NCBI GenBank assembly: GCA_964384115.1
Contig: CAYLJU010000001.1
Location: 6,469 to 70,468, forward strand
Length of the DNA stretch: 64,000 nucleotides
Source: an uncultured Muribaculaceae bacterium
GTDB lineage: Bacteria > Bacillota_I > Bacilli_A > RF39 > UBA660
Reading direction: 5' to 3'
Shown here: positions 16,956-46,967 of the stretch, piece by piece
How positions within the stretch are numbered: position 1 is the first letter of the stretch
Layout: each line of letters starts with the position of its first letter
Position numbers and translations under genes: made by a program
The notes under the pieces: generated by a model
Seen by the model: the letters and a program-made list of their open reading frames with translations, nothing else
The model's database searches: none
What the model was told of the DNA's origin: nothing

Positions 16956-16988
16956 GTAGCACACAAGTAGCCCACAGGTAGCCCACAC
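16956..16988. repeat. attL: three tandem 11-bp units GTAGCACACAA/GTAGCCCACAG/GTAGCCCACAC
   Basis: 22 bp AGTAGCCCACAGGTAGCCCACA (16966-16987) matches attR 46945-46966 at 21/22. Confidence 0.6.
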
Positions 16989-17030
16989 AAAAATGCAATA
17001 ATAAAAGAGGAATTAATCCTCTTATTTTTT

Positions 17031-18077
17031 TTACCTTAATTTATTAACTGCCACAAGTAAATCTTCAATATCTTTATGTGTATATACTTTATCAGTTATA
17101 TCTTTACTTGCATGACCAAGTATTCTTTTAGTACATAATTTATTTGCATCAGTTCTATCCATACGAGTAGAAAAAGTATGTCGTGTATCATGTGGTTTAT
17201 GTTCTTTATTAAATCCAAGTTGTTCAATTACTTTTTCCCATTTTTCGTGATAGAAATTCCAATATAACATTTGTTTATATTCGTGATTAAATATTAAATA
17301 TTCACTGCCAACTTCTTTTGCCCTGTCATACCATCTTTTTATTAAAGGAACAATCCTTTCATGGAATGGTATAACTCTATTTTTACCTGCATCAGTTTTT
17401 GAACCACCTCGCATGTATTTTTCTTCCATGTTGACATTTTCAATTTTAATATCCAATAATTCGCCAATTCGCATACCTGTATATATTAATATCAATATAC
17501 AGTCAATAAAATCCATTCTATCGACATTTTCCCATAGGATGTCTATTTCTTCCTCCTCAAAAGGAATTCGTTCTAATTTGGTCGTTTTTTTGCCTATATC
17601 GATATATTCTGAATATTTTCTTACATTCATATCATTTTTAATCGCAAAATCATACATTTGATGCCATAATATTTTAAATGCTTTCTTTGCTGACCATTTT
17701 TCACCCATACCATCAACAATTTGTTGTAAATGAGGTAGTTTAACATCGACAAAAGGCATATCCTTAATATCTTGACAGTAATTCCAACACATATTATATA
17801 CCTGTTGAGTTTTATGGGCAATTTTAGGATATTTTTCATCTTGCCATTTAGAATGTAATTTTTCTACTGTAATTGACCTAGCATCTATATCATAAGGTTT
17901 CTCATTATATAGTGCTAATTCTTGCAGTGCTTTTGTTCTAGTTTCAAAGTATCCAATAGTTTTTCTTATCTGTGTTCCATCTTCTTTCCAACCAACAGTT
18001 TTTCGTACTCTGTATGGTTTTCTTCTGTTGCCTGATAATTTTTCTATTGAACCATAATTATTAGGTAGTTTTATAAG
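17031..18077 (-). CDS. int: tyrosine-type phage integrase (N-terminal arm-binding region lacks canonical start; possible 1-nt frameshift)
   Basis: Catalytic HDTRHTF...RILGH...Y; frame stays open upstream of Met 17792 to 18077 encoding GSIEKLSGNRRKPYRVRKTVGWKEDGTQIRKTIGYFETRTKA (typical N-term) with no ATG/GTG/TTG; an ATG with SD lies +1 frame at 18081. Confidence 0.8.
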   Translation of the reverse strand, partial: LIKLPNNYGSIEKLSGNRRKPYRVRKTVGWKEDGTQIRKTIGYFETRTKALQELALYNEKPYDIDARSITVEKLHSKWQDEKYPKIAHKTQQVYNMCWNYCQDIKDMPFVDVKLPHLQQIVDGMGEKWSAKKAFKILWHQMYDFAIKNDMNVRKYSEYIDIGKKTTKLERIPFEEEEIDILWENVDRMDFIDCILILIYTGMRIGELLDIKIENVNMEEKYMRGGSKTDAGKNRVIPFHERIVPLIKRWYDRAKEVGSEYLIFNHEYKQMLYWNFYHEKWEKVIEQLGFNKEHKPHDTRHTFSTRMDRTDANKLCTKRILGHASKDITDKVYTHKDIEDLLVAVNKLR

Positions 18078-18197
18078 TCATCACCACCTATAATAAAATA
18101 ATATTTCATATATCAAAATCCTCCCATTTTATTGTATTTTTTAGCAATATTTGATATAATGAAATAGAAAAATCCAAAACATTATATCTTATATTTT

Positions 18198-18220
18198 GTT
18201 TTTAGTTTTGACCGACTAAA
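18198..18220. repeat. left copy of perfect 23-bp inverted repeat GTTTTTAGTTTTGACCGACTAAA
   Basis: Exact reverse complement occurs at 19404-19426; the pair brackets the cI/cro switch. Confidence 0.7.
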
Positions 18221-18277
18221 TGAGGTTTTTCAAATTGACTTACTGTTCCAGCAGTAGGTCTTTTTTTTCTTGCTAAA

Positions 18278-18967
18278 TTATTTTAGTTTTCTTCTTACTT
18301 CAATGGCTATACCCAAAATTTTAACAGGTTTAGTTAATATTTCATATTCATTAAAATAGTAGGGTTCATATTCATTATTTAATGGTTTTAGGATGATGCT
18401 TTTTTCTTGCTTTATAACTCTTTTAAATGTTGCATCATCACCATTTACCATAACAATGCAATCATCACCTGAATTACAATCATTTTGTTGTCTTATAATG
18501 ATAATATCACCAGTTTTATAATCAGGGTACATACTATCACCATCGACTTTTAATGCAAAATAATTTTCACCATTTCTTAACATAGAAGCAGGAAGTTCCT
18601 CGTATCCTAAAATATCTTCAATTGCCTCAATAGGTATTCCAGCAGGTACTTTACCTAGCACAGGGATTTTTATATTTTTTGATGTAGTTTCAATATATCT
18701 AGCATTGTCAATATTCAACTCTGATGGTTCTTTTTCTTCAAACCATTCTCTGTCTATATCGACATCATATCCCATTAGCCACCCCTCGCTAACATCTAGG
18801 GCAATAGCAAGTTTATGTAATTTATCTTGTTTGGCTTTATATTTTCCAGATAGGTAGTTGCTTATCAATGCTTTATCAAGTCCAGTTTTATTGCATAAGT
18901 CAACTTGTTTCATGCCTTTAAGTGACATCGCTTTCTTTAATCTATCAGAAAATTCCTCAACAATCAT
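18278..18967 (-). CDS. CI-like phage repressor (XRE HTH + S24 LexA-like peptidase domain)
   Basis: N-term ...MKQVDLCNKTGLDKALISNYLSG...; C-term ...LKVDGDSMYP...GDIIII... Ser/Lys S24 signature. Confidence 0.85.
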   Translation of the reverse strand: MIVEEFSDRLKKAMSLKGMKQVDLCNKTGLDKALISNYLSGKYKAKQDKLHKLAIALDVSEGWLMGYDVDIDREWFEEKEPSELNIDNARYIETTSKNIKIPVLGKVPAGIPIEAIEDILGYEELPASMLRNGENYFALKVDGDSMYPDYKTGDIIIIRQQNDCNSGDDCIVMVNGDDATFKRVIKQEKSIILKPLNNEYEPYYFNEYEILTKPVKILGIAIEVRRKLK

Positions 18968-19066
18968 ACATCAACCTCCTCAATAATTATTATATACACA
19001 AAATTAAGAAAAATCAATAAAAGTTGATGAAAAAATAAAAAAGTTTAGAAAAGTTAATAAAACATG

Positions 19067-19118
19067 TTGACAAATAAAATAAAAAAATATATACTTGTTT
19101 TAGTTGAGTAAACTCAAC
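19067..19118 (+). promoter_or_regulatory. rightward early promoter (TTGACA-17-TATACT) with downstream 7-2-7 palindrome GTTGAGTAAACTCAAC (operator candidate)
   Basis: TTGACA 19067-19072, TATACT 19090-19095, palindrome 19103-19118, then RBS GGAGGG. Confidence 0.45.
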
Positions 19119-19138
19119 AAGATAGGAGGGTATGCAAA

Positions 19139-45522: not shown

Positions 45523-45532
45523 GAGGAATAAA

Positions 45533-45811
45533 ATGGAACAATTTCTAACATGGGATGTTTTAAAAACTTATGCAAGTTTTGTTTCTATCGTATTTATGGT
45601 TGTAGAATTTACGAAAGAACTAAAAATAATAAAGAAAATTCCAACAAAATATTGGAGTTTTTTTATTTCATTTATCCTTTTAACTATAACAAATATAGTT
45701 ATGGGAAGTTTTAGATTAATAGATGTATTTTTATACCTATTAACATCAATTTCCATTAGTTTAGGTTCTAATGGATTAAGCAATTTTAATACAAAAAACG
45801 AGAGTAAATAA
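45533..45811 (+). CDS. holin
   Basis: 92 aa, two to three TM helices, charged C-terminus; precedes endolysin. Confidence 0.6.
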   Translation: MEQFLTWDVLKTYASFVSIVFMVVEFTKELKIIKKIPTKYWSFFISFILLTITNIVMGSFRLIDVFLYLLTSISISLGSNGLSNFNTKNESK

Positions 45812-45818
45812 AAAACTC

Positions 45819-46013
45819 TTGTTTTTTTATAAAAATTTCTTTGAAAAGGAGGAAAAGATTATGGAAGAAAAAGAAATTTTAACAGAAGAATTACAAGAGA
45901 TGGAAGTGCAAAACACATTCAACACTGATAGTTTAGATGTTTTAGTAGAGGGTGAAGATTGCACAGTAGAAAATCAAGAGGAGGTTGAAGAAGATGCAAA
46001 TGAGAACGAGTAA
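45819..46013 (+). CDS. small acidic hypothetical protein
   Basis: ORF with RBS AAGGAGG. Confidence 0.25.
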   Translation: MFFYKNFFEKEEKIMEEKEILTEELQEMEVQNTFNTDSLDVLVEGEDCTVENQEEVEEDANENE

Positions 46014-46842
46014 ACCATCAGCAGGTAATAAGTTTTATATTACAAAAAGCAAAGGTGGATATTCAACTTGTATTCAAGGAAAACCAACTGATGCAAATTG
46101 TAATGTATTAGCAAACTGTGTTGGATATGCTTGTGGTAGATTTAATGAAATTATTGGAAGCATGAAATATCCATCATTAAATTGCAATGCAGAAAATTTT
46201 ATTGAAAGAGCCAAAAGTTTAGGTTTAACAGTTGTATCATATCCAACATTAGGCGGTATTATGGTATGGCAAAAAGGTTCAACATTATCAGGTAATGATG
46301 GTGCAGGACATGTTGCAGTTGTTGAAAGAATAGACAGTGCAAGTAAAATCTATACATCAGAAAGTGGATATGGTTCAAGTGCATTTTGGAATTCAGTAAG
46401 AAGCAATTCAAATGGTCGTTGGGGATTAGGTTCAGGATATACTTTTAGAGGTTGTATCGTAAACCCAGCAATTGGTGATGTTCATTATGTAGCACCAACA
46501 CCATCAACACCAACTAAATCAAATGAAGAAGTTGCAAATGAAGTTATTCAAGGTAAATGGGGTAATAATCCTGAAAGAAAGCAAAGATTAACAGAAGCAG
46601 GATATGATTATAGTGCTATTCAAGCAATTGTTAATCAAAAAATGGCAGGAAATAAACCATCTGAACCAACAAAATCAAATGATGATATTCTTTTATTAGT
46701 TAAAAAGACTATTAGAGGTGATTTTGGCAATGGTGCTGATAGAAAAAATGCATTAGGTGACAAATATAATGAAGTTCAACATCAAGTTGATTTAAATTAT
46801 AAAAATGGCACTACACAATGGGATAATATAAAATTATATTAA
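45985..46842 (+). CDS. endolysin: CHAP amidase/peptidase domain + two Cpl-7-type (CW_7) cell-wall-binding repeats
   Basis: Cys ...NCVGYACG..., His ...GAGHVAVVE...; repeats EVIQGKWGNNPERKQRLTEAGYDYSAIQAIVNQ and IRGDFGNGADRKNALGDKYNEVQHQVD. Confidence 0.75.
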   Translation: MKKMQMRTSKPSAGNKFYITKSKGGYSTCIQGKPTDANCNVLANCVGYACGRFNEIIGSMKYPSLNCNAENFIERAKSLGLTVVSYPTLGGIMVWQKGSTLSGNDGAGHVAVVERIDSASKIYTSESGYGSSAFWNSVRSNSNGRWGLGSGYTFRGCIVNPAIGDVHYVAPTPSTPTKSNEEVANEVIQGKWGNNPERKQRLTEAGYDYSAIQAIVNQKMAGNKPSEPTKSNDDILLLVKKTIRGDFGNGADRKNALGDKYNEVQHQVDLNYKNGTTQWDNIKLY

Positions 46843-46874
46843 TTTATATAGTTTTAATAAGAGTGATATTTGAA

Positions 46875-46904
46875 AGGTAAGGATTTATTCCTTGCCTTTT
46901 TTTT
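46875..46904 (+). terminator. rho-independent terminator after lysis cassette
   Basis: ggtaagga-ttta-ttccttgcc + TTTTTTTT. Confidence 0.6.
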
Positions 46905-46944
46905 CGTGTTATAAAGCATAGTTTATATATAGATAACTCTAATT

Positions 46945-46967
46945 AGTAGCACACAGGTAGCCCACAA
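46945..46967. repeat. attR: two tandem 11-bp units GTAGCACACAG/GTAGCCCACAA
   Basis: AGTAGCACACAGGTAGCCCACA matches attL 16966-16987 at 21/22. Confidence 0.6.

What the first reader, a model, noticed from the sequence alone, without database searches (positions are those of the whole stretch)
16956..46967. ~30-kb prophage bounded by direct repeats built from 11-bp GTAGCNCACAN units
attL 16956-16988 has three tandem units (GTAGCACACAA GTAGCCCACAG GTAGCCCACAC) and attR 46946-46967 has two (GTAGCACACAG GTAGCCCACAA). The best 22-bp match is 21/22. The integrase and its terminator hairpin abut attL; the endolysin terminator abuts attR. Every canonical module is present and ORFs look intact apart from the integrase 5' end, so the element may still be inducible.
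Basis: seen in the sequence. Interest (0 to 1): 0.6.

Follow-up and report, generated by a model that had tools for sequence, protein, structure and literature searches.

The report
Prophage arm-site repeats, off-target integration
The 11-bp repeats are real but lie inside the phage's own attachment region, where they are most likely docking sites for its integrase rather than the prophage ends; the 30,153-bp phage normally inserts behind ribosomal gene rpsI and here has landed in, and split, a serine-hydrolase gene.

Summary
Five exact GTAGCNCACA units occur at 16956-16988 (three) and 46946-46967 (two) and nowhere else in the window.

There is a complete siphovirus-type prophage, but the repeats are not its ends. 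It runs from 16865 to 47017 (30,153 bp) and splits a PF00144 serine-hydrolase gene at a 4-bp GATA crossover.

All four att forms were recovered:
- attL and attR in the window.
- An empty attB on two conspecific metagenome contigs, which carry no units.
- An attP identical to my prediction on contigs from two other samples, with both unit clusters about 141 nt apart around the core.

The units behave like lambda-type arm sites for the integrase (Int). They sit on both attP arms (3 next to int, 2 on the other arm), recur in unrelated phages with different cores, and change sequence together with the Int N-terminal domain. No binding was measured.

The attP core mimics the rpsI 3' end (PQFSKR*). 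The same phage, and every relative checked down to 50% Int identity, sits at rpsI. The hydrolase site is therefore off-target.

The "damaged" int 5' end is a conserved 34/35-nt insertion, and the codons behind it are under purifying selection.

This is an ordinary kind of system, now well resolved.

The parts
16122..16864 (-). C-terminal fragment of the split host serine-hydrolase gene (Beta-lactamase family, PF00144). The listed ORF 16122-16883 borrows its first 6 codons, LKENFV, from phage DNA.
   Evidence: Pfam profile positions 163-246. Contiguous with the N-fragment in intact homologues. Empty-site contigs align up to 16864.
16849..16864 (+). attL core region AATTCTC-TGTAA-GATA. The crossover is at or next to GATA (16861-16864). 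The AATTCTC block (16849-16855) is shared with attP.
   Evidence: blastn break points share a 4-bp overlap. The pattern occurs only here and at attR in the window.
16865..17030 (+). P' arm of attP, i.e. phage DNA between the crossover and the int stop codon.
   Evidence: Identical to the attP-form contigs L047 and L049. The same layout is seen in relatives.
16882..16922 (+). Intrinsic terminator hairpin in the P' arm. It is oriented to terminate a gene reading into the phage from the left, which is rpsI at the canonical site.
   Evidence: Terminator scan: 13-pair stem plus a T tract. A hairpin sits at the same position in all rpsI-integrated relatives.
16956..16988 (+). Three tandem 11-bp units GTAGC(A/C)CACAN. 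Candidate P' arm-type Int-binding sites; 91 nt separate the first unit (16956) from the crossover (16864).
17005..17023 (.). Bidirectional terminator hairpin after int.
17031..18074 (-). Tyrosine integrase reading frame, 347 codons counted from ATA at 18074-18072, plus its stop codon at 17031-17033. The frame has no ATG, GTG or TTG before codon 95. N-terminal beta-beta-beta-alpha domain at residues 1-60, then core-binding and catalytic domains.
18069..18103 (-). 35-nt insertion right after ATG AAA of the ancestral int start. It carries a GGTGAT Shine-Dalgarno-like sequence (ribosome-binding site) 5 nt upstream of ATA.
   Evidence: Alignment with the int genes of L031 and L007-L011. Present in all copies of this phage, L046-L050, as a 34-nt version in L048.
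18071..18109 (-). 12-codon leader ORF MKYYFIIGGDDL*, starting at the ancestral int ATG. Its TAA overlaps the ATA of the int frame.
   Evidence: Read directly from the sequence.
18278..18967 (-). CI/LexA-like repressor (HTH_3 plus Peptidase_S24).
19139..28176 (+). Early region: Cro-like DUF739, winged-helix protein, replisome organiser, G39P-like loader, transcriptional regulator, a small second tyrosine recombinase (24754-25383) and an HNH endonuclease.
28231..43113 (+). Packaging, head and tail genes: terminase small and large subunits, portal, protease, major capsid protein, major tail protein, tape measure, Dit, minor tail protein, and a receptor-binding-type protein.
   Evidence: PHROG hits.
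43019..45155 (+). Diversity-generating retroelement: variable repeat VR 43019-43098 at the 3' end of ORF 42298-43113, Avd 43232-43771, template repeat TR 43811-43890, reverse transcriptase 44016-45155.
   Evidence: Direct repeat. 11 of 11 VR/TR mismatches fall at TR adenines. RVT_1, phrog_1423 and Avd phrog_3206.
45985..46842 (+). Endolysin (CHAP plus CW_7 repeats), followed by a terminator at 46872-46900.
46901..47013 (+). P arm of attP.
   Evidence: Identical in the attP-form contigs L047 and L049.
46946..46967 (+). Two tandem 11-bp units GTAGCACACAG GTAGCCCACAA. Candidate P arm-type Int-binding sites, in the same orientation as the P' units and 50 nt from the end of the crossover GATA (47017).
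   Evidence: The attP of relatives L014, L015 and L028 also carries 1-2 units on this arm.
46998..47017 (+). attR core region. CCA CAA TTC TCA AAA CGA TA(G) encodes PQFSKR*, a mimic of the rpsI 3' end. AATTCTC is at 47002-47008 and the crossover GATA at 47014-47017.
   Evidence: Compared with the rpsI ends at L031, L048, L050, L020 and L023. blastn break point.
47014..47654 (-). N-terminal fragment of the split serine-hydrolase gene, including the SxxK motif SISK. The ORF runs into the phage P arm and stops at 47007-47009.
   Evidence: Pfam profile positions 7-164..

Best explanation
The window holds a 30,153-bp temperate siphovirus-type prophage at 16865-47017, in an uncultured low-GC Bacilli bacterium related to Firmicutes bacterium CAG:884.

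Shown:
- It integrated by tyrosine-integrase recombination at a 4-bp GATA crossover inside a serine-hydrolase gene and split that gene in two.
- The phage's attP is about 290-340 bp long. In order it contains: endolysin terminator, two 11-bp units, a core that copies the last six codons and stop of rpsI, an rpsI-replacement terminator hairpin, three 11-bp units, the int terminator, then int.
- The phage's normal target is the rpsI 3' end. The hydrolase site shares only AATTCTC-N5-GATA with attP and is a secondary, off-target site.

Inferred:
- The GTAGCNCACA units are arm-type binding sites for the N-terminal beta-beta-beta-alpha domain of a heterobivalent, lambda-like integrase. Binding on both arms would bridge them to the core and assemble the intasome, as P1/P2 and P'1-P'3 do in phage lambda.
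- The int gene carries a conserved 34/35-nt insertion after codon 2. Int is still made in full, most likely by initiation at AUA (18074-18072), using the GGUGAU Shine-Dalgarno sequence that the insertion supplies. Initiation is possibly coupled to termination of the 12-codon leader.
For: Boundaries:
- The two hydrolase fragments abut at Pfam profile positions 163/164.
- In-silico excision at GATA restores a 459-aa ORF reading ...VTGLSYRELIDKY..., which matches intact homologues.
- A 459-aa, 98%-identical protein, P0001, exists. It lies on contigs L029 and L030, whose alignment to the window breaks at 16864/47014 with a 4-bp overlap.
- The locus in CAG:884 (L006) is syntenic and uninterrupted.
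- Contigs L047 and L049, from two other samples, carry exactly the predicted attP junction. L047's contig is 30,080 bp long.

Arm-site reading:
- The units are absent from attB and present on both sides of the core in attP, in a 3+2 layout.
- 17 viral contigs carry tandem units. At least 10 of them have an Int homologue of 37-84% identity in the same orientation.
- Those phages use at least three different cores: the rpsI end, a gene ending ...EEAAKAGKF*, and a tRNA 3' end.
- Among distant Ints that share the unit, the N-domain is 50-61% identical to the window's, against 22-27% for the core-binding domain and 39-43% for the catalytic domain.
- The unit sequence co-varies with strands beta2/beta3 of the N-domain. 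GTAGCNCACA goes with PYR..QIRKT, AATACACA with PYRAR..QxYLT, AACTAACA with PWIAR..QLYQT, and AACGTACA with PWIAV..QVYQT. There are always 3-4 copies at an 11-bp period next to the int 3' end. From the beta3 R-to-Y change I expected GTAATACACA-like units in L043 and L044 before reading them; they carry AATACACA-type units rather than GTAGC.

Canonical site:
- The attP core encodes PQFSKR*.
- The closest intact Int, P0121 (95% identical), was found on 12 contigs. In all 8 places shown it lies next to rpsI; in 7 of them rplM follows, and truA as well wherever the contig reaches that far.
- Relatives at 73%, 54%, 51% and 50% identity also lie next to rpsI.
- The same phage is fused to rpsI in L048 and L050.

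Int translation:
- The insertion is present in all five copies.
- Between the two insertion-bearing variants, codons 1-93 differ at 8 synonymous and 1 non-synonymous codon, P = 2.6e-5 against neutrality.
Against: - No binding experiment exists. The arm-site role rests on position, conservation and covariation only.
- Pfam found no arm-binding domain.
- The 5 bp between AATTCTC and GATA differ between attL and attR. The exact overlap region and the cleavage points are therefore not defined, and the recombination must have tolerated heterology or used a very short identity.
- No excisionase was identified (the 63-aa ORF at 19456-19647 hits only phrog_6058, of unknown function).
- The AUA start is inferred, not observed.
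- I could not examine this host's own rpsI site.
Confidence: 0.8

Rival explanations
1. One reading: the tandem 11-bp units are the attL/attR core, i.e. the duplicated crossover sequence, so the prophage runs from 16956 to 46967.
For: The units flank the phage genes in direct orientation and share a 15-bp exact word.
Against: - Host sequence continues to 16864 and resumes at 47014.
- The empty attB contains no unit.
- The free-phage attP contains both clusters about 141 nt apart, with the core between them.
- Excision at the repeats would not restore the hydrolase ORF, whereas excision at GATA does.
- rpsI-integrated copies have a host/phage junction at the same GATAG|GAC point.
Confidence: 0.01
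2. The units are binding sites for another phage protein, such as an excisionase/RDF, a repressor or a host factor, rather than for the Int N-terminal domain.
For: No binding data exist. Recombination directionality factors (RDFs) also bind tandem direct repeats in attP arms. The N-domain fold match is weak.
Against: - The units lie on both arms, whereas RDF sites are usually on one.
- The unit sequence tracks the Int N-domain across phages whose other early genes differ.
- Int is the only protein seen to be shared among the phages that carry the units.
- The three-copy block always abuts the int 3' end.
Confidence: 0.1
3. The hydrolase gene is a second, evolved and regulated target ('active lysogeny' switch), not an accidental secondary site.
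For: - The insertion is precise and reversible in silico.
- The lysogen's site matches attP at 7/7 positions of AATTCTC, against 6/7 in the empty-site strain.
- The neighbouring genes are linked to sporulation and the cell wall (cotJB, cotJC, ddl).
Against: - attP copies the rpsI end, not the hydrolase.
- Every other copy of this phage with a host junction is at rpsI, and so were all relatives checked that belong to the rpsI-core lineage.
- Only 11 of 16 core positions match, and integration truncates the enzyme after residue 215.
- Only one sample shows this junction.
Confidence: 0.07
4. Full-length Int is not made by AUA initiation. Instead it is made by recoding: a +1 slip on A-AAA-A from the mini-ORF ATG ACT TAT AAA (start at 18081), or ribosome bypass of the 34/35-nt gap from the take-off codon AAA to the landing codon AAA. 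Either route gives M(TY)KLPNNYG...
For: - Both insertion variants, 35 and 34 nt long and out of frame with each other, keep the same GGTGGTGATGACTTATAAAACTACC segment.
- Matching AAA codons flank the gap.
- The N-terminal codons are under selection.
Against: - A run of four A's is a weak slip site, and no stop or rare codon sits in the A site.
- Bypass from a dipeptidyl-tRNA at codon 2 has no precedent I know of (own knowledge).
- No stable hairpin is predicted: z = -0.11.
- A well-spaced GGUGAU Shine-Dalgarno before AUA is the simpler explanation.
Confidence: 0.12

Closest known systems
Phage lambda Int/attP (heterobivalent tyrosine integrase; arm-type sites P1, P2, P'1-P'3)
   Same: - attP is about 300 bp, with repeated sites unrelated to the core on both arms.
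- Three tandem sites lie on the int-proximal P' arm and two on the P arm.
- The prophage order is attL, int, repressor ... lysis genes, attR.
   Different: - The unit sequence is GTAGCNCACA, and the two P-arm units are adjacent rather than separated.
- The core copies a protein-gene 3' end (rpsI) and brings a replacement terminator.
- There is no detectable sequence similarity in the N-domain.
- No Xis was identified.
- Binding is untested.
Tn916 / Tn1549 integrases (N-terminal three-stranded-sheet domain binding arm repeats; tolerance of heterologous crossover sequence)
   Same: - The off-target event here used only 4 bp of certain identity at the crossover.
   Different: - This is a phage with a strongly preferred site (rpsI), not a low-specificity transposon.
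- Whether this Int tolerates heterology was not tested.
rpsI-3'-end-targeting tyrosine integrases of Firmicutes (McRImecD islands of Macrococcus; streptococcal ICEs/IMEs and prophage type GBSInt5)
   Same: [quoted passage not shown]
- This phage, and every relative examined that belongs to the rpsI-core lineage, does the same.
   Different: - The homology between these integrases and the published ones was not measured.
- The window copy is not at rpsI.
- I did not check whether those papers describe arm-type repeats.
Secondary attachment-site integration (lambda secondary sites; ICEBs1, PMC3715440)
   Same: A site-specific element has inserted at a weak look-alike of its primary site and disrupted a gene. 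In ICEBs1 such insertions excise poorly (PMC3715440).
   Different: - Neither the excision efficiency from this site nor the state of the primary site in this host is known.
- Here the event was found in natural metagenome data, not in a strain deleted for attB.

Membership tests
Lambda-type heterobivalent tyrosine integrase with arm-type sites | Tyrosine-recombinase catalytic domain with the conserved R..K..H-x-x-R..H..Y residues | tested here: met
   [not shown]
Lambda-type heterobivalent tyrosine integrase with arm-type sites | A separate N-terminal DNA-binding domain (three-stranded sheet plus helix) ahead of the core-binding domain | tested here: inconclusive
   [not shown]
Lambda-type heterobivalent tyrosine integrase with arm-type sites | Repeated sites, different from the core, on both arms of attP and absent from attB | tested here: met
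   The 3+2 units flank the core in attP contigs L047 and L049. There are none in the empty-site contigs L029 and L030. Relatives L014, L015 and L028 show the same layout.
Lambda-type heterobivalent tyrosine integrase with arm-type sites | Arm-site sequence specified by the Int N-domain (co-variation across lineages) | tested here: met
   Four unit types track four beta2/beta3 motifs. The N-domain is the best-conserved domain among distant Ints that share the unit.
Lambda-type heterobivalent tyrosine integrase with arm-type sites | Physical binding of Int to the arm sites, and their requirement for recombination | not testable with these tools
   Needs EMSA or footprinting and att-site mutagenesis.
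Lambda-type heterobivalent tyrosine integrase with arm-type sites | A recombination directionality factor (Xis) encoded near int | tested here: inconclusive
   The 63-aa ORF 19456-19647 hits only phrog_6058 (unknown function) and has no Pfam match.
rpsI-3'-end-integrating elements | Element inserted immediately downstream of, or overlapping, the rpsI stop codon | tested here: not met
   The window copy lies inside a PF00144 hydrolase gene. The feature is met by other copies of the same phage (L048, L050) and by relatives.
rpsI-3'-end-integrating elements | attP core carries the rpsI 3' end | tested here: met
   CCA CAA TTC TCA AAA CGA TAG encodes PQFSKR*. It matches the rpsI end in L031 at 20 of 21 positions.
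   The junctions are at 16864/16865 and 47013-47017. The empty site has no unit.
Diversity-generating retroelement (side finding) | RT, Avd, and a TR/VR pair that differs only at TR adenines, with VR at the 3' end of a target gene | tested here: met
   11 of 11 mismatches are at TR adenines.

The most novel reading that the evidence does not exclude
The conserved 34/35-nt cassette inserted after codon 2 of int is a translational control device. The ancestral AUG now makes only a 12-15-codon leader. Full-length Int, whose N-terminal 93 codons remain under purifying selection, is produced at a throttled level by leader-coupled initiation at AUA, or by +1 recoding or bypass between the flanking AAA codons. 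If so, this would be an undescribed way of setting integrase dosage. It might also relate to this phage's relaxed site choice, seen in two different rpsI alleles and one off-target gene.
Probability: 0.3. Interest if true: 0.55.

Novelty: new member of a known kind. Interest (0 to 1): 0.33.

Why it matters
- **Annotation.** It corrects the prophage ends by 92 and 50 bp and shows that a host gene is split. A repeat-based annotation would miss both.
- **A complete att set from sequence alone.** It provides attB, attP, attL and attR for a phage of uncultured gut Bacilli.
- **An arm-site code.** Four 11-bp unit types are matched to four N-domain motifs. This could be used to predict att sites and to engineer integrase specificity in Firmicutes.
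- **A natural off-target event.** It documents integration by an rpsI-targeting integrase at a site sharing only AATTCTC-N5-GATA with attP.
- **A caution on pseudogene calls.** The 'truncated' integrase, which gene callers shorten to 253 aa, is evidently functional. Integrases should not be declared pseudogenes from start-codon loss alone.

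Tried and rejected
- **Megablast of 25 kb of the prophage against 50,697 phage records:** no match.
- **tRNA scan of the window:** none, so this is not a tRNA att site.
- **Exact look-up of the flanking Ddl protein:** it found only the same lysogen contig.
- **Crossover inside AATTCTC instead of GATA:** rejected. It would put an in-frame TGA in the restored gene (...GLSF*ELIDKY) and contradicts the empty-site sequence.
- **Exact-pattern scans for the attR junction** (metagenome contigs) **and for the predicted attP junction** (viral contigs, metagenome contigs): no hits. The attP was then found through an exact-protein look-up of the repressor.
- **Arm-binding domain by sequence:** Pfam at E<0.1, and a PDB HMM search with an N-domain profile, found nothing. 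Foldseek of the N-domain model also found nothing.
- **Literature search for the unit sequence:** only PCR primers.
- **The 35-nt int insertion as a local duplication:** rejected, as there is no second copy in the window.
- **RNA structure around the int start:** not different from shuffles, z = -0.11.
- **Assembly chimera as the cause of the junctions:** rejected. Both junctions share the same 4-bp point, and attB and attP were recovered independently from other samples.

Full report
**1. The observation**

GTAGCACACAA GTAGCCCACAG GTAGCCCACAC lies at 16956-16988 and GTAGCACACAG GTAGCCCACAA at 46946-46967. GTAGCNCACA occurs five times in the 64-kb window, all at these two places. Shuffles give 0.07 on average and never five. 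The best 22-bp register is 20/22 rather than 21/22, and the longest exact shared word is 15 bp.

**2. What lies around the repeats**

The window is about 26% G+C and has no tRNA genes. Between the repeats is a full temperate-phage gene set:
- An integrase and an S24 repressor on the minus strand.
- A Cro-like protein, a replisome organiser, a G39P-like loader and an HNH endonuclease.
- Terminase small and large subunits, portal, protease, major capsid protein, major tail protein, tape measure, Dit and a minor tail protein.
- A CHAP/CW_7 endolysin.

The decisive point is outside the repeats. ORF 47654..47007 (minus strand) matches positions 7-164 of the Beta-lactamase family profile PF00144. 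ORF 16883..16122 (minus strand) matches positions 163-246. One host gene has been cut in two.

**3. The true ends**

- *Intact homologues.* In five related genomes the intact gene reads ...MKEVMERVTG[IL][SP]Y[KR][DE]L[IV]DKY.... In Firmicutes bacterium CAG:884 (L006) the uninterrupted gene has the same neighbours as in the window: rsmF and a DUF2207 gene on one side, cotJB, cotJC and ddl on the other.
- *In-silico excision.* Joining 16864 to 47018 restores an in-frame 459-aa ORF reading ...VTGLSYRELIDKY.... Joining inside the AATTCTC block would create a TGA stop.
- *Empty site.* A protein search with the restored sequence found P0001, which is 459 aa and 98% identical. It lies on two ENA metagenome contigs, L029 and L030. 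Their alignment to the window stops at 16864 and restarts at 47014, sharing 4 bp, GATA.

The prophage is therefore 16865-47017, 30,153 bp. The repeats lie 92 bp and 50 bp inside it. The empty site has no GTAGCNCACA unit.

**4. attP**

I predicted attP as 46843-47017 joined to 16865-17030. An exact look-up of the repressor protein returned contigs from other sequencing runs. In L047 (SRR17704065, a 30,080-bp contig) and L049 (SRR17244097), int is followed directly by the endolysin. The junction is identical to the prediction, and both unit clusters flank the core. Together with the empty site, this gives attB, attP, attL and attR.

**5. What the units are**

In attP the order is:
1. endolysin terminator;
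2. two units;
3. 50 nt that run through the core;
4. a terminator hairpin;
5. three units;
6. the int terminator;
7. int.

This is the lambda arrangement: P1 and P2 on one arm, and three tandem P' sites next to int.

A scan of 2.9 million viral contigs for two tandem units gave 17 loci. At least ten of these have an integrase homologue of 37-84% identity, oriented the same way relative to the units. The cores next to the units differ between these phages: the rpsI 3' end, a gene ending ...EEAAKAGKF*, and a tRNA 3' end. The units, the hairpin and the spacing are kept.

Among the distant integrases that share the unit, the N-terminal 62 residues are 50-61% identical to the window's Int. The core-binding domain is only 22-27% identical and the catalytic domain 39-43%.

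Other lineages keep three or four tandem 11-bp units at the same place but with a different sequence, and the change tracks two strands of the N-domain:

| Unit | N-domain strands beta2 .. beta3 | Loci |
|---|---|---|
| GTAGCNCACA | PYR .. QIRKT | window clade and distant sharers |
| AATACACA | PYRAR .. QxYLT | L040, L043, L044 |
| AACTAACA | PWIAR .. QLYQT | L039, L042 |
| AACGTACA | PWIAV .. QVYQT | L045 |

From the beta3 R-to-Y change I expected GTAATACACA-like units in L043 and L044 before looking. They carry AATACACA-type units, even though L043's Int is 73% identical overall to the window's.

My reading is that the units are arm-type Int sites. Position, number, conservation and covariation support this. 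Binding itself is inferred.

**6. Where the phage normally integrates**

The attP core reads CCA CAA TTC TCA AAA CGA TAG, which encodes PQFSKR*, the end of ribosomal protein S9.
- The nearest intact integrase, P0121 (95% identical, 347 aa), was found on 12 contigs. In all eight places shown it is followed after about 160 bp by rpsI; rplM follows in seven of them, and truA wherever the contig reaches that far. The rpsI end there is CCACAATTCTCAAAACGTTAG.
- Integrases at 73%, 54%, 51% (Natronincola) and 50% (Tindallia) identity are also next to rpsI.
- Two further copies of this same phage, L048 and L050 (98.7% and 99.9% identical), are fused to two different rpsI alleles at ...GATAG|GACAAAG, the same point as in the window.
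- The plus-strand hairpin at 16882-16912 then makes sense as a replacement terminator for rpsI.
- Published work already describes the rpsI 3' end as a target of tyrosine integrases in Firmicutes (PMC5341023, PMC7487436).

The hydrolase site shares only AATTCTC-N5-GATA with attP. That pattern is expected 0.08 times per 64 kb. The window insertion is therefore a secondary-site event, of the kind studied for ICEBs1, where excision from such sites is impaired (PMC3715440).

The 5 bp between the two identity blocks differ between attL (TGTAA) and attR (AAAAC). The exchange was therefore confined to GATA or its right flank, or it tolerated heterology. The exact overlap is not resolved.

The lysogen's site reads AATTCTC, whereas the empty-site strain reads AATTCTT. 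This may be a polymorphism that improved the match to attP. The point is unproven.

**7. The integrase 5' end**

All relatives start ATG AAA TTA CC... (MKLPN...). The window has a net 35 nt inserted after ATG AAA, on the minus strand at 18103-18069. The old ATG now opens a 12-codon ORF whose TAA overlaps an ATA in the int frame. The int frame has no ATG, GTG or TTG for 94 codons. Gene callers therefore report a 253-aa product.

The insertion is present in every copy of this phage: the attP forms, the rpsI lysogens and the window. In L048 it is 34 nt long.

Between the window and L048, codons 1-93 differ at eight synonymous codons and one non-synonymous codon, the same as in the downstream part. 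With 21% of possible single-base changes being synonymous, P = 2.6e-5. The N-terminal domain is therefore still translated.

The simplest route is initiation at AUA (18074-18072), 5 nt after a GGUGAU Shine-Dalgarno sequence that the insertion itself brings. Initiation may be coupled to termination of the leader. A +1 slip on A-AAA-A, or a bypass between the flanking AAA codons, would also fit both variants, but I rate these lower. No special RNA structure is predicted.

**8. Verdict**

The prophage call is right. The role given to the repeats is wrong, and so are the stated ends.

The system is a lambda-like integration module of a known kind, with a newly read arm-site sequence family, caught at an off-target site. 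Its integrase has an unusual but evidently functional start.

Interest is moderate to low. The int leader is the only part that might be new biology.

Noticed in passing
window 42298-45155: A diversity-generating retroelement lies inside the prophage. Its parts are a target gene (271 aa, DUF6273 C-terminus) with VR at 43019-43098, an Avd-like ORF at 43232-43771, TR at 43811-43890, and a reverse transcriptase at 44016-45155. All 11 VR/TR mismatches are at TR adenines.
   Followed up: partly
window 24754-25383 (+): A second, small (209 aa) tyrosine recombinase sits in the early region (PF00589, phrog_216). It has no N-terminal or core-binding domain. The rpsI prophages carrying P0121 also have it. 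Its role is unknown.
   Followed up: no
window 16846 and 16855, compared with L029/L030: Two non-synonymous differences (YRELI vs YKELV) lie within 15 bp of the crossover between the lysogen and the empty-site strain. One of them makes the site match attP at 7/7 (AATTCTC) instead of 6/7. It could be a permissive polymorphism or a conversion tract.
   Followed up: no
L012, L022, L026, L027 (viral contigs): Integrases that share the GTAGCNCACA units carry an extra ~43-residue N-terminal extension with two CxxC pairs (MALLKCPEC...CPxCGYPM), which looks like a zinc ribbon, ahead of the KLPNGYG domain.
   Followed up: no
window 11441-13648 (+): A 735-aa ORF lies in a stretch of only ~18% G+C and has no Pfam match. 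CAG:884 has a homologue of only 41% identity at the same position, while neighbouring genes are 70-87% identical.
   Followed up: no
window 14622-15611 (-): Spore-coat genes cotJB and cotJC sit next to ddl in a lineage labelled 'uncultured Bacilli' / Firmicutes CAG:884, which suggests a spore-forming lifestyle.
   Followed up: no
L045 (ENA ERZ27257344 contig): An integrase 56% identical to the window's has AACGTACA-type units and is not next to rpsI. This looks like another change of target within the family.
   Followed up: no
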